DNA of 64,000 nt from Escherichia phage SUT_E1520: the sequence record OQ885479; one strand, 5' to 3'. Of this stretch, positions 6,081 to 56,960 are shown in pieces; position 1 is the stretch's first letter, and the number at the start of each line of letters is the position of its first letter. The notes beneath the pieces were generated by a model. It saw only the letters and a program-made list of their open reading frames with translations. It was not told where the DNA came from and did not search any database. The position numbers and the translations under genes are program-made.

Positions 6081-6081
6081 T

Positions 6082-6160: not shown

Positions 6161-6178
6161 ATTTCAAGAAAAACGCAG

Positions 6179-6207: not shown

Positions 6208-6214
6208 ATTTATA

Positions 6215-6524: not shown

Positions 6525-6529
6525 AACAT

Positions 6530-6809: not shown

Positions 6810-6821
6810 AACAATTTATAT

Positions 6822-7062: not shown

Positions 7063-7282
7063 ATGGCTCAAAGTGTAACGGTGCTATTTGATGCGCTTAG
7101 TAAGACTTCCCCGACATGCGTTCGGGAGTAAGCTGCTAAGACTAGAGTAGAAGAGTTTCTGAGAGCCGCCACAATTGAAAATTCGTACTCGTCTTGAGCT
7201 GCGTGCAATAGGAGATAACTTGATTAGTATTCTAGAACATGCTAATTGAGGAAGGTTTCGCTAACCCTGCGAGTTTTCAATT
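7063..7282 (+). ncRNA. non-coding structured segment with a 13-bp long-range helix
   Basis: CCACAATTGAAAA (7169-7181) pairs with TTTTCAATTGTGG (7273-7285); no ORF, no canonical T-loop. Confidence 0.3.
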
Positions 7283-7359
7283 GTGGCTATATCATAATTG
7301 GTTAATGATCCTGATTGTGAATCAGGCCTATGTGGATTCGAATTCCACTAGCCACCCCA
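7283..7359 (+). tRNA. tRNA-His (GUG)
   Basis: Acceptor GTGGCTA/TAGCCAC, anticodon arm CCTGA-TTGTGAA-TCAGG, T-arm GTGGATTCGAATTCCAC, CCA. Confidence 0.7.
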
Positions 7360-7384
7360 AATTAACTTAAATAGGAAATAAAAT

Positions 7385-7579
7385 ATGGCTGATTTCTGCA
7401 AACAATGCTCCATTGATATGTGGGGTAAAGATACTGGTGATCTTTCTGGTTTGATTACAGAAGCTGAGGTCAAAGAAGGTTATGGTGCAGTTGTGATTTG
7501 CGAAGGATGCGGCGTTATTCGTGTTGATCATGAAGGCAAACGTTTGGAAGAATCTGAGCCAACAACAATTTTTCCGTAG
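7385..7579 (+). CDS. small Cys-containing protein (CxxC...CxxC zinc-finger-like)
   Basis: ORF track; SD AGGAAATAAA. Confidence 0.5.
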   Translation: MADFCKQCSIDMWGKDTGDLSGLITEAEVKEGYGAVVICEGCGVIRVDHEGKRLEESEPTTIFP

Positions 7580-7591
7580 AATAAAAATTAT

Positions 7592-7667
7592 TGGGATGTA
7601 GATCAATTGGCAGATCGTCGGCCTCTGACTCCGAAGGTTCCACGTTCGATCCGTGGCATCCCAGCCA
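7592..7667 (+). tRNA. tRNA-Gln (CUG)
   Basis: Loop CTCTGAC, T-arm CCACGTTCGATCCGTGG, CCA. Confidence 0.55.
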
Positions 7668-7673
7668 AATAAT

Positions 7674-7749
7674 TGGAGAGTAGTGTAACGGTTAGCACAA
7701 CGGCCTTTGACTCCGTTAATGGTAGGTTCGATTCCTCCTTCTCCAGCCA
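7674..7749 (+). tRNA. tRNA-Gln (UUG)
   Basis: Loop CTTTGAC, T-loop GGTTCGATTCC, CCA. Confidence 0.55.
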
Positions 7750-7757
7750 AACAATAA

Positions 7758-7833
7758 GCGGTTAAGCACACGGGTTGTGCCGCAGGCCTTCCAAGCCTCG
7801 CTGAGTAGGGTTCGATTCCCTCTAGCCGCTCCA
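7758..7833 (+). tRNA. tRNA-Gly (UCC)
   Basis: Acceptor GCGGTTA/TAGCCGC, loop CTTCCAA, T-loop GGTTCGATTCC, CCA. Confidence 0.6.
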
Positions 7834-7849
7834 ACTTTAAGGAAACATT

Positions 7850-8101
7850 ATGCACGTTTTTGAGTTTCGTAATAAAAGTACCGAAAAACGAGTTATTGTT
7901 ATTGGAGAAACATACCGAGCATACGAACAAACTGACGGCTCTGTTATCCTGAATGATGAGAAAGGAGGTTTTAGCTTTTATCCAGAAGAACCTTATGAAG
8001 AGTTTCGAAAACAATTTAACCTAGACTGGAGAAAGCATTTAAACACTGTTGCTTCATCTGTAGTATTGCCAACTACCAGTACTGTACTCTCTAATGGCTG
8101 A
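7850..8101 (+). CDS. hypothetical protein
   Basis: ORF track; SD AAGGAAACA. Confidence 0.5.
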   Translation: MHVFEFRNKSTEKRVIVIGETYRAYEQTDGSVILNDEKGGFSFYPEEPYEEFRKQFNLDWRKHLNTVASSVVLPTTSTVLSNG

Positions 8102-8258
8102 TAACCTAAAAGTCAAGATCGATAAACAAAAGAAACGTGTAGAAGTAGAGATTGGTGAAGAACGTGTAGCCTTCACCTTTGAATTTCTACAACAAATGGC
8201 AATGGCGGTTATGACTGATAAGTCTCCTGTTATTGAAAAAGAAATCCCGTTGAAATAA
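8094..8258 (+). CDS. hypothetical small protein (54 aa), start overlaps the upstream stop
   Basis: ATGGCTGA overlap with the preceding gene; below the track cutoff. Confidence 0.35.
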   Translation: MADNLKVKIDKQKKRVEVEIGEERVAFTFEFLQQMAMAVMTDKSPVIEKEIPLK

Positions 8259-8266
8259 CGGGTTCT

Positions 8267-8353
8267 GCTGGGTTGGCAGAATGGTTGAATGCACCTGATT
8301 TGTAATCAGGAGGAGTAATCCCGTTACAGGTTCGAATCCTGTGCCCAGCACCA
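8267..8353 (+). tRNA. tRNA with long variable region; anticodon read as UGU (Thr type) but identity uncertain
   Basis: Acceptor GCTGGGT/GCCCAGC, anticodon arm CCTGA-TTTGTAA-TCAGG, T-arm ACAGGTTCGAATCCTGT, CCA. Confidence 0.5.
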
Positions 8354-8367
8354 ACTTAAGGACTATT

Positions 8368-8535
8368 ATGTTTAAATTATTAGTAGTTATCTGGTATAGT
8401 CAATCAAATAGAGCGAATACCTCCCACGTTATAGACTTTAATACTAAAAATGAAGCTGAAAAAGCATATTCTAATTTAATAGAACGTAATAAAGAATCTC
8501 GTAGTATAGTTTATGAAGTGACTAAACTTTATTAA
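8368..8535 (+). CDS. hypothetical small protein (start moved to the in-frame ATG after the tRNA)
   Basis: Track ORF 8341..8535 begins inside the tRNA; SD AAGGACT precedes the ATG at 8368. Confidence 0.4.
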   Translation: MFKLLVVIWYSQSNRANTSHVIDFNTKNEAEKAYSNLIERNKESRSIVYEVTKLY

Positions 8536-8543
8536 AAATTCAT

Positions 8544-8572
8544 TTGCTTTCTCTCTTATTTATTGTTATAAT
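8544..8572 (+). promoter_or_regulatory. T5-type early promoter
   Basis: TTGCTT-N17-TATAAT; leader ATAAATTAATGAGAGGG. Confidence 0.6.
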
Positions 8573-8602
8573 ATTTATATAAATTAATGAGAGGGAAGCC
8601 AA

Positions 8603-8896
8603 ATGAAACGTTATCTTTCTGTTGTGTTCCAAACTGGTGGTCAACGCTATACCTATGAATTTCCTGGCTCTTGGAAGATCAAAGAAGGTGATCAAGTAGT
8701 AGTGTTAACACCGCGTGAGGGTTTTAAGGTAGTAACGGTTAAGCAAGTATTTCCAAAAGAGCATGAACCAGCTAAAGGCATTCGCTATAAGATGATTCAT
8801 GGTGTAGTTCGTCAAGTACCACGAGCGGAAGTCGAAATCAAAGTAGATAAAGATGGTAAACTTAAATATACCTCTTGCTTAGACGAGTTGCTATAA
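8603..8896 (+). CDS. hypothetical protein
   Basis: ORF track; promoter and SD upstream. Confidence 0.55.
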   Translation: MKRYLSVVFQTGGQRYTYEFPGSWKIKEGDQVVVLTPREGFKVVTVKQVFPKEHEPAKGIRYKMIHGVVRQVPRAEVEIKVDKDGKLKYTSCLDELL

Positions 8897-9102
8897 TGAG
8901 GATTACTTTTACAGAAAAGATCATGAGTAATGGTGTTATGATCATTACCGCATGGGATGGTAATCAGTGGTGTAGTGTTTCAGGTATTAAGCCTGAAGAA
9001 CAAACACTAGAAAATATCTCAAAGATTAAGCGAAGAATGGCAGAACGTGCACGACTTCCAGGTGCACCTAGAAATGGCAAACGTTCTGCTGCAAAATGTT
9101 AA
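8896..9102 (+). CDS. hypothetical protein (start at TAATG overlap)
   Basis: Track ORF 8875..9102; in-frame ATG at 8896 overlaps the upstream stop. Confidence 0.45.
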   Translation: MRITFTEKIMSNGVMIITAWDGNQWCSVSGIKPEEQTLENISKIKRRMAERARLPGAPRNGKRSAAKC

Positions 9103-9103
9103 T

Positions 9104-9180
9104 GCTTCGGTAGCTTAGCGATCTAAAGCACTCGGCTGATAACCGAGAGATCGGGGGTTTAAATCCCTCCCGGAGTACCA
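9104..9180 (+). tRNA. tRNA-Ile (GAU) with a non-canonical T-loop (TTTAAAT)
   Basis: Acceptor GCTTCGG/CCGGAGT with G-U pairs, anticodon arm CTCGG-CTGATAA-CCGAG, CCA. Confidence 0.6.
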
Positions 9181-9194
9181 AATTAAGGTTATGT

Positions 9195-9353
9195 ATGGAA
9201 GATATTGATAAACTTGCAAAAATATTTGCTGAACTTTCTGATATAGAAGTCTCAGAGAACTCTAGAATAGATATGTTTATTGACCAATATAGAGAAGGAC
9301 TTATCAGTAAGAAAGATCTTCTAGATCTAACCTATAAAGAATTAACTAGTTAG
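9195..9353 (+). CDS. hypothetical small protein (52 aa)
   Basis: ATG after SD AAGG; below the track cutoff. Confidence 0.35.
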   Translation: MEDIDKLAKIFAELSDIEVSENSRIDMFIDQYREGLISKKDLLDLTYKELTS

Positions 9354-9423
9354 TTGGCAGAGTGGTTATGCACCTCCTTCATACGGAGCGACTACAGTGG
9401 TTCAAATCCACTACTAACTACCA
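9348..9423 (+). tRNA. tRNA with CAU anticodon (third CAU tRNA; Met or Ile2 type)
   Basis: Acceptor AGTTAGT/ACTAACT, loop TTCATAC, T-arm AGTGGTTCAAATCCACT, CCA. Confidence 0.6.
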
Positions 9424-39152: not shown

Positions 39153-39386
39153 TTAGAAAACTCCCTCACATGTATTCCCCTCAGTAAAGTAGCTTACGGG
39201 AGCCCAAAAAGACCCATAGGCCATAATTGGTGACACCAAAAACATATCCCCTTTCCTATCAAAAACATTAGCCTTATATTTCACATGATCTTGTACATAG
39301 TAGGCCTCACATTTAATATCTTTAGGACCAAAAGTAGAGCAAGCCGAAAGAAGTACCACTGCCATAGCTAAAAATAATTTTTTCAT
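39153..39386 (-). CDS. llp: Llp lipoprotein (FhuA-blocking superinfection-exclusion lipoprotein)
   Basis: 77 aa; signal peptide with lipobox LLSAC; divergent from and adjacent to the pb5 gene as in T5. Confidence 0.75.
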   Translation of the reverse strand: MKKLFLAMAVVLLSACSTFGPKDIKCEAYYVQDHVKYKANVFDRKGDMFLVSPIMAYGSFWAPVSYFTEGNTCEGVF

Positions 39387-46098: not shown

Positions 46099-47475
46099 AT
46101 GACTATTGATATTAATAAGCTGAAAGAAGAACTTGGTCTGGGTGATCTGGCTAAATCTCTGGAAGGTCTGACCGCTGCTCAGAAAGCTGCTGAAGCTGAA
46201 CGTATGCGTAAAGAGCAGGAAGAAAAAGAACTGGCTCGTATGAATGACCTGGTTTCTAAAGCAGTTGGCGAAGATCGTCAGAAGCTAGAAGAAGCTCTGG
46301 AACTGGTTAAATCCCTGGATGAGAAATCTAAGAAGAGCGCAGAACTGTTTGCACAGACTGTAGAAAAACAGCAGGAAACTATTGTTGGTCTTCAGGACGA
46401 AATCAAATCTCTGCTAGCAGCTCGTGAAGGTCGTTCCTTCGTTGGTGATAGCGTAGCTAAAGCACTGTACGGTACTCAGGAAAACTTTGAAGATGAAGTT
46501 GAAAAACTGGTTCTTCTGTCTTACGTGATGGAAAAAGGTGTATTTGATACCGAACATGGCCAGAGACACCTGAAAACTGTAAACCAGTCCTCTTCAGTAG
46601 AAGTTTCTAGTGAAAGCTACGAAACTATTTTCTCCCAGCGTATTATTCGTGACCTGCAGAAAGAACTAGTAGTTGGTGCTCTGTTTGAAGAACTGCCAAT
46701 GTCCAGCAAAATTCTTACTATGCTGGTTGAACCAGATGCTGGTAAAGCTACTTGGGTAGATGCTAGCGCATATGGTACTGATGCTACTACTGGTGACGAA
46801 GTTAAAGGTGCTCTGACTGAAATTCAGTTCAAAACCTATAAACTGGCTGCTAAGTCCTTCATTACTGATGAAACTGAAGAAGATGCAATCTTCTCCCTGC
46901 TACCGCTGCTGCGTAAGCGTCTGATTGAAGCACACGCTGTTTCTATCGAAGAAGCTTTCATGACTGGTGACGGTACTGGTAAGCCTAAGGGTCTGCTGAA
47001 ACTGGCTGAAGGCGATAGTGCTAAAGTTATTACTGAAGCTAAAGCTGATGGTTCTGTTCTGGTAACTGCTAAAACTATCTCTAAACTGCGCCGTAAACTG
47101 GGCCGTCATGGTCTGAAACTGAGCAAACTGGTACTGATTGTATCTATGGATGCTTATTACGATCTGCTGGAAGATGAAGAATGGCAGGATGTTGCCCAAG
47201 TTGGTAATGATGCTGTTAAACTGCAAGGTCAGGTTGGTCGTATTTACGGTCTGCCGGTTGTAGTTTCTGAGTTCTTCCCGGCTAAAGCTAACTCTGCAGA
47301 GTTCGCAGTTATTGTTTATAAAGATAACTTCGTAATGCCGCGTCAGCGTGCTGTTACTGTTGAACGTGAGCGCCAAGCTGGTAAACAGCGTGATGCGTAC
47401 TACGTTACTCAGCGTGTTAACCTGCAACGTTACTTTAATAACGGCGTTGTATCTGGTGCTTACGCTGCATCTTAA
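46099..47475 (+). CDS. major capsid protein precursor (coiled-coil N-terminal scaffold domain)
   Basis: 458 aa; N-terminal coiled-coil delta-like domain; position. Confidence 0.8.
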   Translation: MTIDINKLKEELGLGDLAKSLEGLTAAQKAAEAERMRKEQEEKELARMNDLVSKAVGEDRQKLEEALELVKSLDEKSKKSAELFAQTVEKQQETIVGLQDEIKSLLAAREGRSFVGDSVAKALYGTQENFEDEVEKLVLLSYVMEKGVFDTEHGQRHLKTVNQSSSVEVSSESYETIFSQRIIRDLQKELVVGALFEELPMSSKILTMLVEPDAGKATWVDASAYGTDATTGDEVKGALTEIQFKTYKLAAKSFITDETEEDAIFSLLPLLRKRLIEAHAVSIEEAFMTGDGTGKPKGLLKLAEGDSAKVITEAKADGSVLVTAKTISKLRRKLGRHGLKLSKLVLIVSMDAYYDLLEDEEWQDVAQVGNDAVKLQGQVGRIYGLPVVVSEFFPAKANSAEFAVIVYKDNFVMPRQRAVTVERERQAGKQRDAYYVTQRVNLQRYFNNGVVSGAYAAS

Positions 47476-47492
47476 TACAGGCTTTTCAGCCG

Positions 47493-47522
47493 ATAAGGAG
47501 AGCTTCGGCTCTCCTTTTTTAT
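47493..47522 (+). terminator. rho-independent terminator after the capsid gene
   Basis: AGGAGAGCTTCGGCTCTCCT hairpin followed by TTTTTT. Confidence 0.7.
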
Positions 47523-47535
47523 TGGGGAAAAATAA

Positions 47536-48048
47536 ATGCAAATCATTACAGCCGAAGATTATAGATTATATGGTAGCTTAAAGCGACCTGAACTAGAATC
47601 CGGTGTAGAAATGATGATTACTGCTGCCAATGCGCTGATTACGAGCCTTCTAGGCATGGATGATGCTGATGCGGTAGACCAGTTAATCAATACAAAACCT
47701 ACACGTAGGAAATATTTTCTGAGTTCACCATCTGCTACCTCCGTAACTAAAGTGACGATTAATGATAATGAGATTGACCCAGAGCAGTATAAACTATACT
47801 CTGACGGTATTATCCTTCTCAAATTTAATCCTCCAGAAGGTTATATGGACGTAGCGTATACACAAGGTGGATTTAACCCAGTGCCTGAAGATCTTAAGTT
47901 AGCAGCGTGTATGCTAGTAGATCATTGGCATAAACAAGATTATCGCCAAGCTAAAACAATTGGTGGTGAAACAGTAACCTTCAATAGCACTAAGTCTGGT
48001 ATTCCAGAGCATATTCGTACTATTATTGAAGTATACAGGAGAGTATAA
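47536..48048 (+). CDS. head-tail interface protein (putative, by position)
   Basis: ORF track; preceded by the TTTATTGGGGAAAAATAAA motif. Confidence 0.5.
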   Translation: MQIITAEDYRLYGSLKRPELESGVEMMITAANALITSLLGMDDADAVDQLINTKPTRRKYFLSSPSATSVTKVTINDNEIDPEQYKLYSDGIILLKFNPPEGYMDVAYTQGGFNPVPEDLKLAACMLVDHWHKQDYRQAKTIGGETVTFNSTKSGIPEHIRTIIEVYRRV

Positions 48049-48815
48049 TGTCTCTTTCCGATCTAGCTAAACAAATTATTAAAGAGCAGCTAGATACTGC
48101 AGGACGATCTGAAAATAATAAGAATACTGTTGTGTACTCTGTTGAGACAGGGTTAAAAGATCCTACCAGAGATGGTACTGTTGCTCAAGTATCTTTTAAG
48201 TTTTCAAAACCCGTATCACAAGATCTTCTTGATGTTAGAACAGCCTCTATACTAAAAGCGGTATCCTCTAGTTTAGATCTTTCGGGAGATTTAGGTGCTC
48301 TAGAGAACTTAATACAAGCAACCGCTGGTAAAAAATCTGCTGTAGGTAAAAAACGTTCTACAGGTAGAGTACAGGTAAACTTCGGTGATCCTAGAGATGT
48401 GGAAGATGGTTATTCTGGTGCAGTAACAGGTGCTTCCGGTCGTTTTGTATCAAATAGTAATATGCGTACTATTCTTGAAATAGTTGCTAAGGAATATTTG
48501 ATAAAAGATATGAAAAAGGCAGGAGCGCCATTAAAGTTTAGAACTGGTAGATTTGCAAATTCTCTAAAAATTAAAGATGTTATGCTTAGGGATGCAGAGA
48601 CTAGTAAAGGTGCCCCCGAACTAAACGTGACGTATAATTATATGGTACGTCCATATTCTGTATTTAATCCAGCAGTATCTACATATAGAAGATTATCTTT
48701 ACGACCCTACCCAGGTGCTAGAAACCCACAAAAACTTATTGGTGAGGCTATAGCAAAAGCTGCAAGAGACCTGATTCACTCTAGATATAAAATCAAGGTT
48801 AATCAAGGAACCTAA
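48048..48815 (+). CDS. structural / morphogenesis protein (putative)
   Basis: ORF track; translationally coupled. Confidence 0.5.
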   Translation: MSLSDLAKQIIKEQLDTAGRSENNKNTVVYSVETGLKDPTRDGTVAQVSFKFSKPVSQDLLDVRTASILKAVSSSLDLSGDLGALENLIQATAGKKSAVGKKRSTGRVQVNFGDPRDVEDGYSGAVTGASGRFVSNSNMRTILEIVAKEYLIKDMKKAGAPLKFRTGRFANSLKIKDVMLRDAETSKGAPELNVTYNYMVRPYSVFNPAVSTYRRLSLRPYPGARNPQKLIGEAIAKAARDLIHSRYKIKVNQGT

Positions 48816-48818
48816 TAA

Positions 48819-49304
48819 ATGGATCATAGAACAAGTATTGCACAAGCTCTGGTTGACCGTATATCTAAACAGTTGGACGGTTCTCAACCTGACGAATATT
48901 TTAATAACCTATATGGAAACGTTTCTCGTCAAACTTATAAATTTGAGGAAATACGAGAGTTTCCTTATGTGGCAGTTCATATCGGAACTGAAACTGGGCA
49001 GTATCTTCCTTCAGGCCAACAGTGGATGTTTTTAGAACTTCCAATCCTGGTGTACGATAAAGAGAAAACAGACATTCAAGAGCAACTTGAAAAACTCGTA
49101 GCGGATATAAAAACCGTTATTGACACAGGTGGAAATTTAGAATATACTGTTAGTAAACCTAATGGATCGACCTTCCCATGTGAGGCAACTGATATGATCA
49201 TTACATCAGTTAGTACAGATGAGGGTCTACTGGCCCCATATGGTTTAGCAGAAATAAATGTAACAGTGAGGTATCAGCCTCCACGTAGGTCACTTCGCAG
49301 ATAA
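48819..49304 (+). CDS. structural / morphogenesis protein (putative tail completion)
   Basis: ORF track. Confidence 0.5.
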   Translation: MDHRTSIAQALVDRISKQLDGSQPDEYFNNLYGNVSRQTYKFEEIREFPYVAVHIGTETGQYLPSGQQWMFLELPILVYDKEKTDIQEQLEKLVADIKTVIDTGGNLEYTVSKPNGSTFPCEATDMIITSVSTDEGLLAPYGLAEINVTVRYQPPRRSLRR

Positions 49305-49330
49305 GTTACAGATTAGGAGAAAATAATTAA

Positions 49331-50737
49331 ATGTCTTTACAACTATTACGTAATACTCGAATCTTCGTGTCTACGGTTAAGACTGGTCATAATAAGACCA
49401 ACACGCAAGAGATTCTAGTTCAGGATGATATTTCTTGGGGTCAGGACAGTAACTCAACAGATATTACTGTTAATGAAGCTGGTCCGCGTCCAACTCGTGG
49501 TTCTAAACGTTTTAATGACTCTTTAAACGCGGCTGAGTGGAGTTTCTCTACTTATATCCTTCCGTATAAAGATAAAACTACTAACAAACAGATTGTTCCT
49601 GACTATATGTTATGGCACGCTCTTTCTAGTGGTAAAGCTCTTAACCTAGAAGGTGACACAGGAGCACATAATAACGAAACCAATTTTATGGTTAACTTTA
49701 AAGATAACGCGTACCACGAACTGGCAATGCTGCATATCTACATCCTGACTGACAAAGCATGGAGTTACATCGACTCTTGCCAGATCAACCAGGCAGAAGT
49801 TAACGTTGATATTGAGGATATTGGTCGTGTAACTTGGTCAGGTAATGGTAACCAGCTTATTCCTTTGGATGAGCAACCATTTGATCCTGATACTGTAGGT
49901 ATTGATGATGAAACTTATATGACTATTCAGAGTTCTTATATTAAGAACAAACTGACTATCCTGAAAATTAAGGATATGGATTCTGATAAGGCATATGATA
50001 TCCCTATTACTGGTGGTACTTTCACCATTAATAACAACATCACGTACCTAACCCCGAATATTATGTCCCGTGTAAATATTCCGATCGGTTCATTTACTGG
50101 TGCATTTGAATTAACTGGTTCACTAACTGCCTATCTAAATGATAAATCTCTTGGTTCTATGGAACTGTACAAAGATCTTATCAAAACCTTGAAGGTAGTT
50201 AACAAGTTTGAAATCGCACTTATCCTTGGTGGTGAATACGATGATGAACGTCCGGCAGCTGTGCTGGTTGCTAAACAGGCTCACGTTAACATTCCTACTA
50301 TTGAGACTGATGATGTACTTGGTACTTCAGTAGAGTTTAAAGCTATCCCTACAGATTTGGATACTGGTGATGAAGGTTATCTTGGTTTCTCTAACAAGTA
50401 TACTAAAACCACTGTGGCTAATCTGATTGCTACAGGAGATGGAGCTAAAACTCCACCAAAACTAGTTGAATCAATCACAGTTAAATCTGTTGGTAATGCT
50501 ACTTCAGTACAGAACAGTAATACTCTACAGATGTCTGTTGAAGTAACTCCGCCAGATGCTACTAATAGTGCTGTAACTTGGTCTATTTCTAGTGGTGATG
50601 CAGCTACAATTGATCCAGAATCTGGTTTATTAACTGCGGACACTACTAAGACAGGTTCTGTTACTGTCAAAGCTGTAGCTAAAGACGGTTCTGGTGTAGA
50701 AGGTACTAAGAGCATTACAGTTACTGCTGGTGGCTAA
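49331..50737 (+). CDS. tail tube protein (pb6-like) with C-terminal Ig-like (Big_2) domain
   Basis: 468 aa; C-terminal segment ITVKSVGNATSV...TWSISSGDAATID...VTVKAVAKDGSG. Confidence 0.75.
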   Translation: MSLQLLRNTRIFVSTVKTGHNKTNTQEILVQDDISWGQDSNSTDITVNEAGPRPTRGSKRFNDSLNAAEWSFSTYILPYKDKTTNKQIVPDYMLWHALSSGKALNLEGDTGAHNNETNFMVNFKDNAYHELAMLHIYILTDKAWSYIDSCQINQAEVNVDIEDIGRVTWSGNGNQLIPLDEQPFDPDTVGIDDETYMTIQSSYIKNKLTILKIKDMDSDKAYDIPITGGTFTINNNITYLTPNIMSRVNIPIGSFTGAFELTGSLTAYLNDKSLGSMELYKDLIKTLKVVNKFEIALILGGEYDDERPAAVLVAKQAHVNIPTIETDDVLGTSVEFKAIPTDLDTGDEGYLGFSNKYTKTTVANLIATGDGAKTPPKLVESITVKSVGNATSVQNSNTLQMSVEVTPPDATNSAVTWSISSGDAATIDPESGLLTADTTKTGSVTVKAVAKDGSGVEGTKSITVTAGG

Positions 50738-50741
50738 TTAA

Positions 50742-51641
50742 ATGTACTACTCTCTAATGAGAGAGTCAAAAGTTATAGTTGAGTATGATGGTAGGGCATT
50801 TCATTTTGATGCCCTATCAAACTATGATATACAGACTTCCTACGAGGAATTCAAGACTCTTCGTAGGACTGTTCATCGTAGAACTAACTATGCAGACTCT
50901 ATTATAAATGCTCAAACCCCCTCTTCTATCTCTCTAGCAGTAAATTTCAGTAATACTCTTACTGAGGCTAACTTCTTTGAATGGTTAGGTTTTGATAGAA
51001 AAGGTAATACTTTCTTACTCCCACTATATAGTAATAATATTGAACCTATTATGTTCAATATCTATATAGTAAATAAAGATAATAACTGTGTATATTTTGA
51101 AAACTGTTATGTATCTACGGTAGATTTTTCTTTAGATAAGAACATACCAATTCTTAATGTTGGTATTGAATCGGGGAAATTTTCCGAAGTATCTACATAT
51201 AGAGAAGCAGGTTCTATTATACAGGGTGAAGTAATGTCTTATAGCCCAGTAATAGCTTCTACTAATGGTAGCGTCTTACCAGGTCTTATCTCTGCCTCTT
51301 TATCTTTCCAGCAGCAGTGCTCTTGGAGAGAAGATAAGAGTGTTTTTGATATAAATAAAATCTATAATAATAAAAGAGCTTATGTAAATGAAATGAATGC
51401 TTCGGCAACTATTTCTCTATATTACTTAAAACGTTTTGCAGGAGATATGGTTTACAATGTCGAACCAGAGGTAGATGTACCTTTAAATATAAGAAATAAT
51501 AATATTTCTATAGATTTTCCTTCAGCACGTATTACAAAACGCCTAGATTTCTCAGATGTGTATAGAGTTGAGTGGGATATTATACCTACTGCTTCTTCAG
51601 ACCCAGTGAGAATAGATTTCTTTGGAGAAATTAAAAAATGA
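50742..51641 (+). CDS. tail-associated protein (hypothetical)
   Basis: ORF track; position between tail tube and tape measure. Confidence 0.5.
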   Translation: MYYSLMRESKVIVEYDGRAFHFDALSNYDIQTSYEEFKTLRRTVHRRTNYADSIINAQTPSSISLAVNFSNTLTEANFFEWLGFDRKGNTFLLPLYSNNIEPIMFNIYIVNKDNNCVYFENCYVSTVDFSLDKNIPILNVGIESGKFSEVSTYREAGSIIQGEVMSYSPVIASTNGSVLPGLISASLSFQQQCSWREDKSVFDINKIYNNKRAYVNEMNASATISLYYLKRFAGDMVYNVEPEVDVPLNIRNNNISIDFPSARITKRLDFSDVYRVEWDIIPTASSDPVRIDFFGEIKK

Positions 51642-52042
51642 TTAATTTAAAAGATATTACTCTTGATACTCGTACTATTACTCTTTCCTACCCAGGTATG
51701 CCAAACTTTAAACTAGAACTTAACTATATGTCTCGCGCTACCTCTAAACGTGTTATTTCTTCTGCTAAACGTGACGAATGGGTTAATGGTACACTGATAC
51801 AAGTGCAGGATGATGATAAGTTCATTGAAGCATTTGTTGACGCAGCTATTAAAGGTTGGACTGGTTTGACTGTAGGTGACGTTGAAAAACTGATGCTGAT
51901 TGAAACAGATGCTGATCCCGCTACTGAAGTTCCTTTTAGCCGCGATAATGCTGTAATGCTTATGCAGAACTCTGCTGCGTTTGATTCTTGGATCAACCAA
52001 ACAGTGTTCCACTTAGACACTTTTCGTAGCCCAAAAGCGTAA
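51638..52042 (+). CDS. putative tail assembly chaperone
   Basis: Acidic small protein upstream of the tape measure gene; positional. Confidence 0.45.
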   Translation: MINLKDITLDTRTITLSYPGMPNFKLELNYMSRATSKRVISSAKRDEWVNGTLIQVQDDDKFIEAFVDAAIKGWTGLTVGDVEKLMLIETDADPATEVPFSRDNAVMLMQNSAAFDSWINQTVFHLDTFRSPKA

Positions 52043-52103
52043 AGAACTCCTAGATGCTGTTGCTGATTTTGCAGACAAATGTATTAAAAGCTCAGCATCT
52101 AAA

Positions 52104-52472
52104 ATGACTAAACAACAATATTTAATACTTTGCGAGTCAATGGGTATAGAGCCTGATCCTAAGGCTATGCCCGTTGAACTCGAAGATTTTCCACCTATTG
52201 TATCTATTAGTATGAATATTTATAACAGTCTAATTGACTGTTTCATACCGGGTGACTTCCCTATTTTTATAGGTAAGGATAAGGCTGCATTAGGTGTTTT
52301 ATTTGATATTTATGGGATTACTGATCCTATAGAAAAAGAATTCGTTCTACACATTATCAATATATTTGATGCTAAAGCTGTAGATGCTGCACGTAAGCGT
52401 GCTGAGCAGCATAAACCGCAAAACGGAAGGATTCCTAACGTTAAGCCACATGCTAGATCTCGTGCACGGTAA
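52104..52472 (+). CDS. putative tail assembly protein
   Basis: ORF track; positional. Confidence 0.45.
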   Translation: MTKQQYLILCESMGIEPDPKAMPVELEDFPPIVSISMNIYNSLIDCFIPGDFPIFIGKDKAALGVLFDIYGITDPIEKEFVLHIINIFDAKAVDAARKRAEQHKPQNGRIPNVKPHARSRAR

Positions 52473-52506
52473 AAGTTTCCTCCAATGGGCGTTCCACGAT
52501 GAGGCT

Positions 52507-52537
52507 TGGCTCTGGGTGATTTGCCCAGAGCCTTTTT
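52507..52537 (+). terminator. rho-independent terminator, followed by the TTTATTGGGAAAAATAAA motif
   Basis: GGCTCTGGGTGATTTGCCCAGAGCC hairpin followed by TTTTTT. Confidence 0.7.
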
Positions 52538-52555
52538 TATTGGGAAAAATAAAAC

Positions 52556-55500
52556 ATGACTGATAAGCTAATACGAGAATTACTAATAGACGTTAAACAG
52601 AAGGGGGCAACTCGTACTGCAAAGTCTATTGAAAACGTATCTGATGCGTTGGAAAATGCTGCTGCTGCTTCCGAACTGACAAATGAGCAGTTAGGTAAAA
52701 TGCCCAGAACTCTTTATTCCATTGAGAGGGCAGCAGACAGAGCAGCGAAAAGTCTTACTAAAATGCAAGCTAGTAGGGGTATGGCTGGTATTACTAAATC
52801 CATTGATGGTATTGGTGATAAGCTAGATTACCTGGCTATCCAACTTATTGAAGTAACAGATAAACTAGAAATTGGATTTGATGGAGTTTCTAGATCTGTT
52901 AAAACAATGGGTAATGATGTTGCAGCTGCAACAGAAAAAGTCCAGGATAGATTATACGATACTAATAGAGCATTAGGTGGTACAGCTAGAGGTTTTAACG
53001 ACACTGCTGGTGCCGCTGGTAGAGCTTCTAGAGCTATTGGTAATACCTCTGGTTCAGCACGTGGTGCAACTCGTGATTTTGCGGCAATGGCTAAGATCGG
53101 TGGTAGTCTACCTATTATGTACGCAGCTCTTGCTTCCAACATCTTCGTTTTGCAATCAGCATTTGAACAACTTAAACTAGGTGATCAGCTAAATCGTCTA
53201 GAAAAATTTGGTGTTATAGTAGGTACTCAGACAGGTACTCCTGTTCAGACCCTTGCTAGATCACTACAAGAAGCTGCTGGATATGCTATTTCTTTTGAGG
53301 AAGCAATGAGACAGGCATCTTCAGCATCTGCTTATGGATTTGATGCTGAACAACTTAATAAATTTGGTTTAGTAGCTCGTCGTGCGGCTGCTGTTCTTGG
53401 CGTTGATATGACTGATGCACTTAACCGTGTAATTAAGGGCGTATCTAAACAAGAAATCGAACTTCTGGATGAACTTGGTGTCACTATCCGTCTTAATGAC
53501 GCATACGCTGATTATGTTAAACAGTTAAATGCTGCAAACACAGGTATAACATATAATGTTAATAGTCTTACCACTTTCCAGAAGCAACAAGCATATGCTA
53601 ATGCAGTAATTGCTGAATCTACTAAACGGTTTGGCTATCTAGATGAAGTACTACGTGCAACTCCATGGGAGCAATTTGCTGCTAATGCAGATGCTGCACT
53701 AAGAAAAATACAACAAGCTGCTGCTAAGTATTTAGGGCCAGTAATTGATGCTATCAACACAGTATTTTATACATCTCAGGCTTCTATATCTGCTGAGGCA
53801 GCTAGAGCTCAAGAAAAAACTAATAGACAGATAGACCCTACCAACGTTGGTGCTGTTGCTTTAAGTTTAGCTGCTTCTGAAGAAGGCTATAATAAAGCTC
53901 TAGATATGTATAAGGAATCTCTTGATAAGCGTAATAAGCTAAAATCTGAGTTCGATAAACGAATGGAACAAGCAGATTTCTATACAAAACTAGCTATACG
54001 TCAAGTTGGTGAAGGTATTCCTGTTGGTATTGCAGCCGCGGGTGCTTCCGAAGCTAATAAAAAGTTTGTAGAAGAAACCGCAGCTATGGGTCTACAAGTA
54101 ACTAGACTCGGTAAGGAAGTAGAGGATTCTACAGAGAACCTCAATGCTTGGAAATCAGCTTATCAGGCTGCTGGAGCTGCTGCTGCAAAAGCTAATCCAG
54201 AGTTTCAGAAACAGATTAATCTACAGAGAGATACTACTGATCCTGATGCTGTATACGATTTTAACTCTACTGTATTAAAAGGACTAACTGAACAACAAAA
54301 GGCATATAATCAGACTAAGAAAACTGCTAGTGACTTAGCTAATGATATACAGAACGTTGCTCAGAATACAGATACTGCTGCTAAGACTAGTGCTACTTTA
54401 GCAGATGCTATAAAAAATATAGAATCACTATCTCAAGGTACTGGTAAAAGTGCAGACGAGTATGTTAAAAACCTTAACCTAGGCTATAATACTCTGTCTG
54501 AAATGAAAACTGCGTCTCAGGCCTTATCTGAGTACGTTAAACTAACCGGTAATGAGACTAAGAACCAGTTAGCAGTTCAACAGAAGATAGCTGACGTATA
54601 CAACCAAACTAAAGATAAAGAAAAAGCACAGGAAGCCGGTAGGCGTTTAGAACTCCAACAGTTAGAAGAGCAAGAGGCTGCTTTACGCCGTGTACTTCAA
54701 ACTAATCAGGGAAATAAAGCTGTTGAGAAAGAGATTGAAAAAATTCAGCTGGAGAAACTTAAGCTTACCAATCAGGGTATGGAAGCTCAGAAGAAAGTTA
54801 AGGATTATACAGATAAAATTCTGGGTGTAGACCGTGAGATAGCTCTCTTAAATAACCGTACTATGACAGATACTCAGTATCGTTTAGCACAGTTAAATCT
54901 TGAATTGACCATTGAAAAAGAGAAGTACGAATGGTATACAAAACAAGCTGATAAACAGAAAGAGGCGGAACAGTCTAGACGTGCTCAAGCCCAAATTGAA
55001 CGTGAAATCTGGAAATTCCGCCAAGATCAGATTGCTTCAATGGCTGCTGGTAGAGAGGAAGAACAGCAAAGACAATTTACTGCTAAACCATTAATGGGAA
55101 ATGCGGAGCGCTTACAGGAACAGCTAAAATTATATGAAGACTTAAAGCAGAAAACATTAGGTAATGCTGCGGCACAAGCGGAATATAATAAAAAGATAGC
55201 TGAAACTAGGGCACAACTAGCAGGTTTAAGGGCACAGAGAAATGCGGAGATGCAAGCTTCTGTTGGATCTTCTTTAGGTGCTGTGTACACTCCTACAACT
55301 GGACTATCTGGAGAAGATAAAGATTTTGCTGATATGGGAAATAGAATGGCTTCTTATGATCAGGCAATTTCTAAACTATCTGAGTTAAATTCCGAAGCAA
55401 CTGCTGTAGCTCAAAGCATGGGTAATTTAACCAATGCTATGATTCAGTTCTCTATGGGGTCTTTAGACACTACTTCCACGATCGCAGCAGGTATGCAGAC

Positions 55501-56236
55501 TGTGGCCTCTATGATTCAATATAGTACTAGTCAACAGGTTAGTGCAATTGATCAGGCTATTGCAGCAGAGCAGAAACGTGATGGTAAATCAGAAGCATCT
55601 AAAGCTAAGTTGAAGAAACTAGAAGCTGAAAAGTTGAAGATTCAACAAGACGCAGCTAAGAAGCAGATCATCATCCAAACTGCAGTAGCTGTAATGCAAG
55701 CGGCGACAGCTGTACCGTACCCGTTCTCTATTCCTTTGATGGTGGCGGCAGGTTTGGCAGGTGCCTTAGCTCTTGCTCAAGCATCTTCTGCATCTGGTAT
55801 GTCAAGTATTGCAGATTCTGGAGCGGATACAACTAGTTACCTAACCTTAGGAGAACGTCAGAAGAATATAGATGTGTCCATGTCTGCTAATGCAGGTGAA
55901 CTGTCTTATATTCGTGGCGATCAAGGTATAGGTAGCGCTAACTCTTTCGTTCCTCGTGCTGAGGGTGGTAATATGTACCCTGGGGTTAGCTATCAAATGG
56001 GTGAGCATGGTACAGAAGTAGTTACCCCTATGATTCCTATGAAAGCTACACCTAATGATGAGCTAAAAACTTCATCTAACTCAACTTCAGGAAGACCTAT
56101 CATCTTGAATATTAGTGCTATGGATGCTGCAAGTTTTAGAGAGTTTGCTTCTAGTAATAGTAGTGCTCTAAGAGACGCAGTAGAATTAGCTCTGAATGAG
56201 AACGGTGCTAGTCTGAAAACATTAGGAAATTCTTAA
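52556..56236 (+). CDS. tape measure protein (pb2-like)
   Basis: 1226 aa; Ala/Gln-rich helical repeats, hydrophobic segments and a C-terminal region. Confidence 0.85.
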   Translation: MTDKLIRELLIDVKQKGATRTAKSIENVSDALENAAAASELTNEQLGKMPRTLYSIERAADRAAKSLTKMQASRGMAGITKSIDGIGDKLDYLAIQLIEVTDKLEIGFDGVSRSVKTMGNDVAAATEKVQDRLYDTNRALGGTARGFNDTAGAAGRASRAIGNTSGSARGATRDFAAMAKIGGSLPIMYAALASNIFVLQSAFEQLKLGDQLNRLEKFGVIVGTQTGTPVQTLARSLQEAAGYAISFEEAMRQASSASAYGFDAEQLNKFGLVARRAAAVLGVDMTDALNRVIKGVSKQEIELLDELGVTIRLNDAYADYVKQLNAANTGITYNVNSLTTFQKQQAYANAVIAESTKRFGYLDEVLRATPWEQFAANADAALRKIQQAAAKYLGPVIDAINTVFYTSQASISAEAARAQEKTNRQIDPTNVGAVALSLAASEEGYNKALDMYKESLDKRNKLKSEFDKRMEQADFYTKLAIRQVGEGIPVGIAAAGASEANKKFVEETAAMGLQVTRLGKEVEDSTENLNAWKSAYQAAGAAAAKANPEFQKQINLQRDTTDPDAVYDFNSTVLKGLTEQQKAYNQTKKTASDLANDIQNVAQNTDTAAKTSATLADAIKNIESLSQGTGKSADEYVKNLNLGYNTLSEMKTASQALSEYVKLTGNETKNQLAVQQKIADVYNQTKDKEKAQEAGRRLELQQLEEQEAALRRVLQTNQGNKAVEKEIEKIQLEKLKLTNQGMEAQKKVKDYTDKILGVDREIALLNNRTMTDTQYRLAQLNLELTIEKEKYEWYTKQADKQKEAEQSRRAQAQIEREIWKFRQDQIASMAAGREEEQQRQFTAKPLMGNAERLQEQLKLYEDLKQKTLGNAAAQAEYNKKIAETRAQLAGLRAQRNAEMQASVGSSLGAVYTPTTGLSGEDKDFADMGNRMASYDQAISKLSELNSEATAVAQSMGNLTNAMIQFSMGSLDTTSTIAAGMQTVASMIQYSTSQQVSAIDQAIAAEQKRDGKSEASKAKLKKLEAEKLKIQQDAAKKQIIIQTAVAVMQAATAVPYPFSIPLMVAAGLAGALALAQASSASGMSSIADSGADTTSYLTLGERQKNIDVSMSANAGELSYIRGDQGIGSANSFVPRAEGGNMYPGVSYQMGEHGTEVVTPMIPMKATPNDELKTSSNSTSGRPIILNISAMDAASFREFASSNSSALRDAVELALNENGASLKTLGNS

Positions 56237-56240
56237 AACT

Positions 56241-56268
56241 GGAGGAGGACTTTGAGTCCTCCTTTTCT
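56241..56268 (+). terminator. rho-independent terminator after the tape measure gene
   Basis: GGAGGAGGACTTTGAGTCCTCC hairpin followed by TTTTCTTT. Confidence 0.65.
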
Positions 56269-56289
56269 TTATGGAAAAATAAAAATTTC

Positions 56290-56319
56290 TTGATAAAATT
56301 TTCTAATACTATTATAATA
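56290..56319 (+). promoter_or_regulatory. sigma70-like promoter ahead of the baseplate genes
   Basis: TTGATA-N18-TATAAT, then SD AGAGGAG. Confidence 0.4.
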
Positions 56320-56345
56320 TTGTTATTAAAGAGGAGAAATTAACT

Positions 56346-56960
56346 ATGAGATTACCAGACCCATACACGAATCCAGAACTTTCAGGCTTAGGATTCGAAA
56401 GTGTTAACCTGATTGATAATGACCCAGTAATTCGTGATGAGTTACCAAATGGTAAAGTTAACGAAGTTAAGGTATCTGCTCAATACTGGGGTATAAATAT
56501 TTCTTATCCAGAATTATTTCCAGATGAATATAGTGTTCTAGATGCTTTTATTCTAGAATACAAAAGGACTGGTGGTTATATAGATGTTATATTACCCCAA
56601 TACGAAGCTTTTAGAGTTAGAGGTAATACTAGTCTAGTAAATATACCTGCTGGACAGAAGGGTTCTAATATAACTATGGATACAAAAGGGTTTCTTACAG
56701 GTACCCCAAAACCGGGGGATCTATTTAAGCTGTCTAACCACCCAAAAGTATATAAAATAACATCATTTAACAAATCAGGTAATACATGGTCTATAAACTT
56801 ATACCCTGATTTATTTATAACTACTACTGGAGCGGAGAAGCCAGTATTTAATGGAATCCTATTTAGAACAAAACTCATGAATGGTGATGCTTTTGGATCT
56901 ACACTAAATAATAACGGAACATACTCCAACATCTCACTAAATTTACGGGAAAGTCTATGA
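56346..56960 (+). CDS. distal tail protein (pb9-like, Dit)
   Basis: 204 aa directly after the tape measure gene. Confidence 0.65.
   Translation: MRLPDPYTNPELSGLGFESVNLIDNDPVIRDELPNGKVNEVKVSAQYWGINISYPELFPDEYSVLDAFILEYKRTGGYIDVILPQYEAFRVRGNTSLVNIPAGQKGSNITMDTKGFLTGTPKPGDLFKLSNHPKVYKITSFNKSGNTWSINLYPDLFITTTGAEKPVFNGILFRTKLMNGDAFGSTLNNNGTYSNISLNLRESL

What the first reader, a model, noticed from the sequence alone, without database searches (positions are those of the whole stretch)
47493..56290. Recurrent late-region signal: terminator hairpin followed by TTTATTGGGAAAAATAAA directly before the next start
The same arrangement appears three times: after the capsid gene (47493-47535), before the tape measure gene (52507-52555) and after it (56241-56285). 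The conserved A/T-rich block placed where a promoter or translation enhancer would sit suggests a late-gene regulatory element recognised by a modified RNA polymerase or a phage factor.
Basis: seen in the sequence. Interest (0 to 1): 0.45.

Follow-up and report, generated by a model that had tools for sequence, protein, structure and literature searches.

The report
Leaky terminators abutting ribosome-binding sites
The repeated signal in this T5-like phage is two ordinary transcription terminators sitting directly against the next gene's ribosome-binding site, plus a third terminator followed by the A/T-rich upstream part of a known late promoter; it is real and well conserved, but it is not a new regulatory element.

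Summary
The window is a T5-like phage (Tequintavirus), and the finding lies in its late structural genes. The three hairpins are real and are the three strongest terminator-like sites of that module. The 11-mer GGAAAAATAAA occurs only at these three places in 64 kb.

The three sites are of two kinds.
- **S1 and S2.** S1 (after the capsid gene) and S2 (before the tape-measure gene) read: G+C-rich hairpin, TTTTTTATT, GGG(G), an A-rich spacer of 8-11 nt, ATG. This fits an intrinsic terminator U-tract followed by a weak Shine-Dalgarno site and spacer for low-copy proteins, which would be made only from read-through transcripts.
- **S3.** The block lies 62 nt before the next start, at about -52 to -36 of the known late sigma-70 promoter PG25. 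That is the position of an UP element.

The S1/S2 arrangement is kept in more than 500 related phage records, with compensatory hairpin changes, and several records annotate it as terminator plus ribosome-binding site. The spacer varies by insertions and deletions. In phage T5 itself an inserted gene replaces the S2 motif. No other copy exists in the 108-kb genome, including at other late promoters.

A dedicated late-gene signal read by a modified RNA polymerase is not supported. A structure hiding the Shine-Dalgarno site is possible but unsupported by covariation.

The parts
47480..47491 (+). S1: small upstream hairpin GGCT-TTTC-AGCC, 5 nt after the capsid stop codon (TAA 47473-47475)
   Evidence: Sequence. 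The GGC...GCC stem is kept with variable loops in Sealy, Slocum, DU_PP_V and PR1. There is no covariation, so the structure is neither supported nor refuted.
47495..47523 (+). S1: intrinsic terminator. Stem GGAGAGC / GCTCTCC (47497-47503 and 47508-47514), UUCG tetraloop, then T-tract TTTTTTATT (47515-47523).
   Evidence: -13.8 kcal/mol. The hairpin is nearly identical (at most one base pair added or exchanged) in enterobacterial relatives whose head-completion protein is only 46-60% identical. Vibrio phages have a different but equally strong hairpin at the same place.
47524..47538 (+). S1: translation start region of the head-completion gene. Weak Shine-Dalgarno GGGG (47524-47527), A-rich spacer AAAAATAA (8 nt), ATG at 47536.
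   Evidence: Duplex with the 16S rRNA 3' end is -5.5 kcal/mol, in the lower half of the late genes. The start codon is confirmed because the Pfam HCP profile aligns from residue 2. The homologous bases are annotated as a ribosome-binding site in phages Stitch, Sealy and Slocum.
52476..52507 (+). S2: conserved non-coding block TTTCCTCCAATGGGCGTTCCACGATGAGGCTT between the chaperone stop codon (52470-52472) and the terminator. It holds an anti-Shine-Dalgarno-like CCTCC and a GAGG. Its function is unknown.
   Evidence: Kept in Sealy, Slocum, PR1 and L176, and partly in Vibrio phage Ceto. One-base insertions and deletions exclude a coding role. No Rfam match. Two candidate structures pair in 84% of cells, but neither shows convincing covariation.
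52508..52541 (+). S2: intrinsic terminator. A 10-bp stem GGCTCTGGGT / GCCCAGAGCC, loop GATTT, then T-tract TTTTTTATT (52533-52541).
   Evidence: -20.3 kcal/mol. Three adjacent pairs are exchanged compensatorily in Klebsiella phage Sealy (GGCCTAGGG/CCCTAGGCC), and other variants occur in L176 and PR1. All variants fold at -17 to -21 kcal/mol. Annotated as a terminator in PR1, Sealy, Slocum, Lindwurm and BB1.
52542..52558 (+). S2: translation start region of the tape-measure gene. Weak Shine-Dalgarno GGG(A), A-rich spacer AAAAATAAAAC, ATG at 52556.
   Evidence: Duplex energy is -4.2 kcal/mol. The spacer between GG and ATG varies from 8 to 12 nt among relatives. The pb2 protein of T5 has the same N-terminus, and the T5 record says it was identified by N-terminal sequencing.
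56241..56272 (+). S3: intrinsic terminator after the tape-measure gene (stop codon 56234-56236). Stem GGAGGAC / GTCCTCC, then T-tract TTTTCTTTAT.
   Evidence: -15.2 kcal/mol. A terminator is annotated at the homologous place in Stitch, Slocum and PR1.
56273..56289 (+). S3: A/T-rich block GGAAAAATAAAAATTTC directly upstream of the -35 of promoter PG25, at about -52 to -36. This is the position of an UP element.
   Evidence: A/T-rich blocks also precede the -35 in Sealy, DU_PP_V, Slocum and PR1, but the GG is not kept. A similar block, AAAAATAATTTTTTC (39370-39384), precedes the -35 of the promoter-like site upstream of the receptor-binding gene, where there is no terminator.
56290..56348 (+). 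Late promoter PG25 (-35 TTGATA 56290-56295, -10 TATAAT 56313-56318), followed by the strong ribosome-binding site AGAGGAG and the ATG at 56346 of the distal tail protein pb9.
   Evidence: 11 of 12 hexamer matches. Annotated as 'promoter P-G 25' in the T5 record AY692264. Late transcripts from PG25 were shown by primer extension in T5 (PMC7472727). The Shine-Dalgarno duplex is -9.1 kcal/mol.

Best explanation
**S1 and S2.** Each is a Rho-independent terminator whose U-tract (UUUUUUAUU) runs straight into the translation start region of the next gene: a weak Shine-Dalgarno GGG(G), an A-rich spacer and AUG.
- Most RNA polymerases stop there. This gives abundant, hairpin-protected mRNA for the capsid protein and for the tail-tube-to-chaperone genes.
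- The fraction that reads through carries the head-completion and tape-measure genes. These have no promoter of their own, and their proteins are needed in only a few copies per virion.
- So the 'motif' is a composite of U-tract, Shine-Dalgarno site and spacer, working as an expression step-down.

**S3.** This is a terminator that closes the tape-measure transcript. It is followed by the A/T-rich, UP-element-like region of the sigma-70 late promoter PG25, which restarts transcription for the tail-tip genes.

**Shown versus inferred.** Shown: the sequence anatomy, its conservation, and the promoter identity. Inferred: partial termination, weak translation, and UP-element function.
For: - **Identity of the window.** The window is 100% identical to Tequintavirus phages over 47000-53000, and the gene order (capsid, head completion ... 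chaperones, tape measure, distal tail protein) is established.
- **Terminator anatomy.** The three sites are the strongest terminator-like sites of the late module.
- **Selection on structure.** The hairpins keep pairing through compensatory changes across genera.
- **Conserved grammar.** Terminator, U-tract, G-rich Shine-Dalgarno site, A-rich spacer and ATG are kept at both sites from Tequintavirus to the Klebsiella, Serratia, Providencia and Pectobacterium phages. Vibrio phages keep the grammar with different sequence. S1 is found in 505 phage records and S2 in 532.
- **Independent annotation.** Other annotators mark these very bases as terminator and ribosome-binding site.
- **Spacer behaviour.** The stretch between GG and ATG varies by insertions, deletions and substitutions (8-12 nt). 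That fits a spacer and does not fit a fixed operator.
- **House style.** Other late genes of this phage use a purine core plus an A-rich spacer, for example AGGAGAAAATAATTAAATG for the tail tube. S1 and S2 have weak cores, at -5.5 and -4.2 kcal/mol.
- **No own promoter.** No promoter-like site lies between the terminators and the two genes.
- **Dispensable sequence.** In T5 the S2 block is replaced by a 770-nt insertion, and the tape-measure gene is then preceded by AGGAAAACATTAGATG.
- **A general arrangement.** In unrelated viral contigs the same GAGAGC-UUCG-GCUCUC hairpin is often followed by a T-tract, a Shine-Dalgarno site and ATG.
- **S3.** The hexamers and the annotation identify PG25, late transcripts from it are published, and a similar A/T block sits at another promoter-like site of the late region.
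Against: - No RNA 3'-end, read-through or translation data exist for these sites. A search of the held literature found no T5 transcriptome.
- The near-identity of 21 nt between S1 and S2, and the invariance of T6ATTGG across genera, is more than a weak Shine-Dalgarno site would seem to need.
- The S2 spacer in this phage (10-11 nt) is at the long end for Shine-Dalgarno spacing.
- Both hairpins with 8-of-9-U tracts look like efficient terminators, so how enough read-through is obtained is unexplained.
- The conserved 32-nt block upstream of the S2 hairpin has no role in this model.
Confidence: 0.78

Rival explanations
1. One reading: the block is a dedicated late-gene control element, either a promoter or an activator site. 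It would be recognised by T5-modified RNA polymerase or by a phage factor and would switch on the gene that follows.
For: The 11-mer is significantly over-represented and confined to the late module. T5 is known to modify host RNA polymerase, and how the late switch works is unknown (PMC7472727). At S3 the block really is part of a late promoter region.
Against: - At S1 and S2 the block abuts the ATG, so a promoter there would start inside the gene. No -35/-10 pair is found.
- The other late promoters (PJ5 at 49120; the promoter-like site at 39386 upstream of the receptor-binding gene) and most late gene starts lack it.
- There are only two or three copies in 108 kb.
- The part nearest the start codon varies in length.
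- T5 lacks it at S2.
- Published T5 late promoters are ordinary sigma-70 promoters.
Confidence: 0.04
2. A cis-acting RNA clamp. In read-through transcripts AUUGGG(G)AAAA would pair with a pyrimidine-rich segment upstream of the terminator hairpin (S1: UUUUC..CCGAUA, 47483-47495; S2: UUU-CC-UCCAAU, 47476-style position 52476-52486). This would hide the Shine-Dalgarno site and so limit or regulate translation of the head-completion and tape-measure proteins.
For: - The minimum-free-energy fold of S1 contains exactly this 11-bp enclosing stem (-22.4 kcal/mol, z = -3.6).
- The RNAalifold consensus of S2 encloses the terminator in a stem that uses UUUUUAUUGGGA.
- Both upstream partners are conserved. 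For S2, 84% of cells pair in register against 48-62% when the partner is slid.
- It would explain why ATTGG is invariant and why the S2 upstream block is conserved.
Against: - There is no real covariation. For S2, 34 of 500 shuffles reach the observed pairing and the covariation score equals the shuffle mean.
- For S1, 76% of cells pair against 73% in shuffles.
- The alifold covariation term is unfavourable (+0.44).
- Any Shine-Dalgarno site is trivially complementary to CCUCC.
- A rival local hairpin (CCUC/GAGG) pairs equally often.
- The Pectobacterium phage and JLBYU43 variants break the S1 stem.
Confidence: 0.1
3. The shared 21-mer is kept, or was copied, because it is the DNA target of a family of free-standing homing-endonuclease-like genes that occupy exactly these two spacers in some relatives.
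For: - Genes inserted at S1 (JLBYU43 and others) and at S2 (T5p137) both carry the CapR homology domain plus a treble-clef zinc finger.
- All four S1-occupied loci in the sample, and all 6 occupied GenBank records, have an altered motif: ATTATTAGG in place of ATTGGG (all six GenBank records and two of the sampled loci) or ATTGG (the other two loci). Such changes are expected of cleavage-immune alleles.
Against: - The insertion points differ: before the hairpin at S1, after the T-tract at S2.
- The altered motif also occurs in unoccupied phages (DT57C, DT571/2, Gostya9), so linkage or co-conversion explains the association equally well.
- The motif is conserved in genera where no such insert was seen.
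- No nuclease activity or target has been determined.
Confidence: 0.05

Closest known systems
Rho-independent (intrinsic) terminators used as attenuators after highly expressed phage structural genes; the classic case is T7 T-phi after capsid gene 10 (from general knowledge)
   Same: A G+C-rich hairpin plus U-tract lies immediately after the major capsid gene. The downstream low-copy structural genes have no promoter of their own and must come from read-through. The hairpins are maintained by compensatory changes.
   Different: Here the polymerase is the host sigma-70 enzyme and not a phage RNA polymerase. The U-tract is fused directly to the next gene's ribosome-binding site. The same 21 nt recur at two sites. 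Termination efficiency has not been measured.
Shine-Dalgarno translation start regions with A/U-rich spacers
   Same: A purine core complementary to the 16S rRNA 3' end lies 8-11 nt before a verified ATG. The A-rich spacer resembles those of the other late genes of this phage. The bases are annotated as a ribosome-binding site in related records.
   Different: The core is weak (GGG/GGGG, -4 to -5.5 kcal/mol). The flanking ATT and the first A's are conserved more than such a site would seem to require.
UP elements of strong sigma-70 promoters (rrnB P1; T5 promoters such as PG25)
   Same: At S3 the A/T-rich block lies at about -52 to -36 of a promoter matching 11 of 12 consensus positions. That promoter is annotated as PG25 in T5 and has been shown to be late in T5.
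   Different: This applies only to S3. Dependence on the RNA polymerase alpha subunit C-terminal domain has not been tested. The GG that makes the block resemble S1 and S2 is not conserved in other genera.
Terminator-promoter couples in the T5 early region
   Same: Many strong hairpins in this genome are followed within 10-30 nt by a consensus promoter, as at S3.
   Different: S1 and S2 are followed by a start codon instead of a promoter.

Membership tests
Intrinsic (Rho-independent) terminator | G+C-rich stem-loop (stem of at least 5 bp, loop of 3-8 nt) on the coding strand downstream of a stop codon | tested here: met
   S1 has 7-9 bp with a UUCG loop, S2 has 10 bp and S3 has 7-11 bp. They lie 20, 36 and 5 nt after the stop codons.
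Intrinsic (Rho-independent) terminator | U-rich tract directly after the stem | tested here: met
   TTTTTTATT at S1 and S2; TTTTCTTTAT at S3.
Intrinsic (Rho-independent) terminator | Stem maintained by compensatory substitutions in relatives | tested here: met
   At S2, three adjacent pairs are exchanged in Sealy, with further variants in L176 and PR1. At S1, the G-C pair becomes A-T in L011, and Vibrio phages have a different hairpin. All fold at -11.6 to -25 kcal/mol.
Intrinsic (Rho-independent) terminator | RNA 3' ends or termination at the U-tract, in vivo or in vitro | not testable with these tools
   No T5 3'-end data were found in the held literature.
Shine-Dalgarno translation start region | Purine-rich match to the 16S rRNA 3' end about 5-12 nt upstream of the start codon | tested here: met
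   S1: GGGG, 8-nt spacer, -5.5 kcal/mol. S2: GGG(A), 10-11 nt spacer, -4.2 kcal/mol. Both are weak compared with -9 kcal/mol for pb9.
Shine-Dalgarno translation start region | The ATG that follows is the true start codon | tested here: met
   The head-completion Pfam profile aligns from residue 2. The tape-measure N-terminus is identical to T5 pb2, which its record says was identified by N-terminal sequencing.
Sigma-70 promoter with UP element (S3 only) | -35 and -10 hexamers with a 16-18 bp spacer, and an A/T-rich region at about -40 to -60 | tested here: met
   TTGATA, 17-nt spacer, TATAAT: 11 of 12 matches. The block lies at about -52 to -36. Annotated as P-G 25 in T5. Late primer-extension product reported in T5.
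Sigma-70 promoter with UP element (S3 only) | Stimulation that depends on the RNA polymerase alpha subunit C-terminal domain | not testable with these tools
   Needs in vitro transcription with RNA polymerase lacking the alpha C-terminal domain.
Sigma-70 promoter at S1 or S2 | -35 and -10 hexamers placed so as to serve the downstream gene | tested here: not met
   The scan lists no site with at least 9 of 12 matches on the + strand at 47476-47600 or 52473-52600. The nearest, at 52629, lies inside the tape-measure gene.
Phage-specific late promoter of the T4 type (TATAAATA) | The TATAAATA box | tested here: not met
   Direct reading: S1 is ...GGGGAAAAATAAATGC, S2 is ...GGGAAAAATAAAACATG and S3 is ...GGAAAAATAAAAATTTC. 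None contains TATAAATA.
Structured cis-regulatory RNA (structure that sequesters the Shine-Dalgarno site) | Base pairs supported by covariation across relatives | tested here: inconclusive
   Candidate stems pair in 76-84% of cells but are not separated from shuffles, and the covariation term is not favourable.
Any curated RNA family (Rfam 15) | Match at or above the family's gathering score | tested here: not met
   Only tRNAs were found in the window. Nothing credible was found at 47400-56400 even at E-values up to 5.

The most novel reading that the evidence does not exclude
The invariant T6-ATTGGG-A5 block, together with the conserved pyrimidine-rich segments upstream of the two hairpins, forms a family-wide RNA device. 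The clearest upstream segment is the anti-Shine-Dalgarno-like UUUCCUCCA block at 52476-52486, which is kept as far as Vibrio phages.

Two versions are possible:
- a clamp round the terminator that hides the Shine-Dalgarno site and meters translation of the head-completion and tape-measure proteins from read-through RNA;
- for S2, a small RNA derived from the 3' untranslated region, carrying a CCUCC seed.

Either would be a dedicated post-transcriptional regulator of virion stoichiometry, and more than a plain terminator plus ribosome-binding site.
Probability: 0.1. Interest if true: 0.45.

Novelty: already known. Interest (0 to 1): 0.18.

Why it matters
The finding matters little beyond good annotation. 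It shows how T5-like phages step expression down from the capsid and tail-tube genes (hundreds of copies per virion) to the head-completion and tape-measure genes (a few copies). They do this with a terminator fused to a weak ribosome-binding site, and then restart transcription at PG25.

The result is useful for phage engineering. These 40-50 nt cassettes are compact, conserved expression 'resistors', and relatives tolerate gene insertions in exactly these spacers.

If the minority reading were true (a clamp that hides the Shine-Dalgarno site, or a small RNA from the 3' untranslated region), it would add a post-transcriptional layer to T5 late gene control. How that control works is still largely unknown.

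Tried and rejected
- **Promoter reading of S1 and S2.** Rejected: no hexamers were found, and the geometry is impossible for the abutting gene.
- **Genome-wide late motif.** Rejected: there are no other copies in the 107.9-kb genome rebuilt from the window plus LR597659.
- **Hidden coding of the S2 spacer.** An ORF at 52384-52563 is annotated as a 33-aa protein in JLBYU43. Rejected: 1-nt insertions and deletions among close relatives break the frame.
- **Known RNA family.** None was found.
- **Enclosing stems and local hairpins.** Tested by pair counts and found inconclusive.
- **Using the S1 hairpin as a probe for relatives.** GAGAGCTTCGGCTCTC mostly returned unrelated contigs. This shows that the hairpin is a generic, widespread terminator stem and not a family signature.
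- **Literature.** I searched for T5 transcript maps, Term-seq or late-promoter definitions. Only Klimuk et al. 2020 was useful. Zivanovic 2014 and Nakayama 1994 are not held.
- **Variant motifs in IMG/VR.** Scans for the variant S1 motifs added no new loci.
- **Bidirectional terminator.** Rejected by direct reading: on the minus strand the hairpins are followed by TTATCGG or AAGCCTC, which are not T-tracts.

Full report
**What the window is.** Bases 47000-53000 are 100% identical to Escherichia phages SUT_E420 and SUT_E520 and to T5_ev212, and 95-96% identical to many Tequintavirus and Epseptimavirus phages. The finding lies in the late structural module on the + strand. The gene order there is:
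- major capsid protein pb8 (46099-47475);
- head-completion protein (47536-48048);
- tail completion, tail terminator and tail tube pb6 genes;
- a minor tail protein;
- two tail-assembly chaperone ORFs (51638-52042 and 52104-52472);
- tape-measure protein pb2 (52556-56236);
- distal tail protein pb9 (56346-56960);
- the baseplate hub.

**Check of the observation.** All three hairpin-plus-T-tract sites are present.
- They are the top three terminator-like sites of 44-64 kb.
- In my own scan of the 107.9-kb genome (the window plus the missing part from LR597659) their hairpin energies are -13.8, -20.3 and -15.2 kcal/mol.
- The quoted 18-mer is exact only at S2. S1 has an extra G, and S3 differs upstream of GG.
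- The shared 11-mer GGAAAAATAAA occurs three times against 0.19 expected.
- TTTTTTATTGGG occurs twice against 0.02 expected.
- The block abuts the next ATG at S1 and S2. At S3 it is 62 nt from the next ATG.

**Anatomy.**
- S1: stop codon, small hairpin GGCT-TTTC-AGCC, then GGAGAGC-TTCG-GCTCTCC, TTTTTTATT, GGGG, AAAAATAA, ATG.
- S2: stop codon, a 32-nt conserved block (TTTCCTCCAATGGGCGTTCCACGATGAGGCTT), a 10-bp hairpin, TTTTTTATT, GGG, AAAAATAAAAC, ATG.
- S3: stop codon, hairpin, TTTTCTTTAT, GGAAAAATAAAAATTTC, TTGATA, a 17-nt spacer, TATAAT, then AGAGGAG and ATG.

**S3 is a terminator followed by a known promoter.**
- The hexamers match 11 of 12 consensus positions.
- The T5 record annotates 'promoter P-G 25' at the homologous place, and 'P-J 5' at the site equivalent to 49120.
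- Klimuk et al. 2020 detected PG25 and PJ5 transcripts by primer extension from 30 min after infection. They describe T5 late promoters as sigma-70 promoters with -35, -10 and UP elements (PMC7472727).
- The A-rich block therefore lies at about -52 to -36, which is the UP-element position.
- A similar block, AAAAATAATTTTTTC, precedes the -35 of the promoter-like site at 39386 (11 of 12 hexamer matches), upstream of the receptor-binding gene, where there is no terminator.
- In other genera the region before the -35 stays A/T-rich, but the GG is not kept.
- So the resemblance of S3 to S1 and S2 is the meeting of a T-tract with an A-tract. It is not a shared element.

**S1 and S2 are terminators fused to translation start regions.**
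- *Conservation.* Across 40 related loci and seven genera the grammar of hairpin, T5-6ATT, GG(G), an A-rich stretch of 8-12 nt and ATG is conserved at both sites. Vibrio phages keep the grammar with different sequence, for example CCCCTTTTTCTTTATGGGGGCAAGATG.
- *Hairpins.* The stems are under structural selection. At S2, GGCTCTGGG/CCCAGAGCC becomes GGCCTAGGG/CCCTAGGCC in Klebsiella phage Sealy, and other variants occur in L176 and PR1; all of these fold at -17 to -21 kcal/mol.
- *Spread.* S1 is found in 505 phage records and S2 in 532.
- *Annotation.* Several records annotate exactly these bases as terminator and ribosome_binding_site: Stitch, Sealy, Slocum, PR1, Lindwurm and BB1.
- *Spacer.* The stretch between GG and ATG varies by insertions and deletions. 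Examples are AAAAATAAATG, AAAATAAAACATG, AAAAAATAAAATATG, AAAAAATCATG and TAAAATAAATG. That is how a spacer behaves, and not how a fixed operator behaves.
- *House style.* Other late genes use the same style, for example tail tube AGGAGAAAATAATTAAATG and chaperone GGAGAAATTAAAAAATG.
- *Strength.* The S1 and S2 cores are weak, at -5.5 and -4.2 kcal/mol, compared with -9 kcal/mol for pb9.
- *Start codons.* The head-completion start is confirmed by the Pfam profile. The tape-measure start matches T5 pb2, which was identified by N-terminal sequencing.
- *No promoter.* No promoter-like site lies between either terminator and its gene, so both genes depend on read-through.
- *Stoichiometry.* From general knowledge of T5 virions, the capsid and tail-tube proteins are needed in hundreds of copies, and the head-completion and tape-measure proteins in about 12 and 3. 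The arrangement therefore makes sense as a step-down. T7 T-phi after gene 10 is the classic analogue.

**Two further points argue against a special signal.**
- In T5 itself the S2 block (GGGAAAAATAAAAC) is replaced by a 770-nt insertion carrying T5p137. The tape-measure gene is then preceded by ACAGGAAAACATTAGATG.
- The S1 hairpin sequence is generic. A scan of viral contigs returned at least 120 mostly unrelated hits. Many of them show the same layout of hairpin, T-tract, Shine-Dalgarno site and ATG.

**What remains unexplained.**
- T6ATTGG is invariant at both sites over genera whose flanking proteins are 42-60% identical.
- The 32-nt block before the S2 hairpin is conserved as far as Vibrio phage Ceto.
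- I tested whether AUUGGG(G)AAAA pairs with upstream segments so as to hide the Shine-Dalgarno site. Such stems do appear in the minimum-free-energy fold of S1 and in the RNAalifold consensus of S2.
- However, pair counts show conservation without covariation. The idea is therefore neither supported nor excluded.

**Verdict.** The hypothesis of a common late-gene element read by modified RNA polymerase is not supported.

Noticed in passing
window 51638-52472 (overlap 52017-52042); also L005, L037, L038, L036, L004: The second tail-assembly chaperone ORF (52104-52472) has no Shine-Dalgarno site (-0.1 kcal/mol). Its frame is open back to 52017, overlapping the end of the first ORF by 26 nt in the +1 frame. 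The same +1 relation holds in five other genera, with overlaps of 26-56 nt and a conserved peptide encoded in the supposed spacer (T[LP]FV.Q..LL..V..FA..C[IV]K). An invariant TTT CGT lies in the overlap. This suggests a conserved programmed +1 (or -2) frameshift producing a G/GT-like fusion protein.
   Followed up: partly
L002 15155-15907 (T5p137, at S2); L003 10664-11233 (JLBYU43, at S1): Relatives carry inserted genes in exactly the two motif-bearing spacers. Both inserts have the Pfam CapR homology domain plus the DUF4379 treble-clef zinc finger, and the S1 insert is annotated as a GIY-YIG nuclease. All S1-occupied genomes have an altered motif (ATTATTAGG or ATTGG in place of ATTGGG). The same variant also occurs in the unoccupied phages DT57C, DT571/2 and Gostya9.
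   Followed up: partly
window 52476-52507: A 32-nt non-coding block, TTTCCTCCAATGGGCGTTCCACGATGAGGCTT, lies between the chaperone stop codon and the S2 terminator. It is more conserved than the flanking genes: nearly invariant in the Klebsiella, Serratia and Providencia phages and in L176, and partly kept in Vibrio phage Ceto. It contains an anti-Shine-Dalgarno-like CCUCC. There is no Rfam match, and its function is unknown.
   Followed up: partly
window 56322-56351: The ribosome-binding region of pb9 downstream of PG25 (ATTAAAGAGGAGAAATTAACTATGAGA) looks identical to the 'RBSII' used in pDS and pQE expression vectors. This is from memory and was not checked against a vector sequence.
   Followed up: no
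viral contigs L043-L162: The hairpin GAGAGC-TTCG-GCTCTC (UUCG tetraloop) recurs in at least 120 mostly unrelated viral contigs. It is usually followed by a T-tract, so it is a convergent 'standard' terminator stem.
   Followed up: yes
window 1683-9420: A cluster of 20 tRNA genes lies on the + strand, as expected for a T5-like phage.
   Followed up: no
window 1 to about 37850, compared with record LR597659: The window is not collinear with the deposited linear records. It runs across the record's ends (record position about 38485 down to 1, then 108546 down to about 82400). The source assembly is therefore circularly permuted, or joined through the terminal repeat.
   Followed up: partly
L017 (IMGVR_UViG_2974619798), S1: The S1 T-tract is expanded to 13 T in one relative. 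This shows length instability of the tract.
   Followed up: no
phage records PQ773600.1 and MK318083.1: A 41-kb record labelled as a Corynebacterium phage carries the T5-type S2 region at 97% identity, so its host label or assembly looks wrong. Separately, the Aeromonas phage Akh-2 record is annotated as many tiny ORFs across the structural genes, which suggests an assembly rich in frameshift errors.
   Followed up: no
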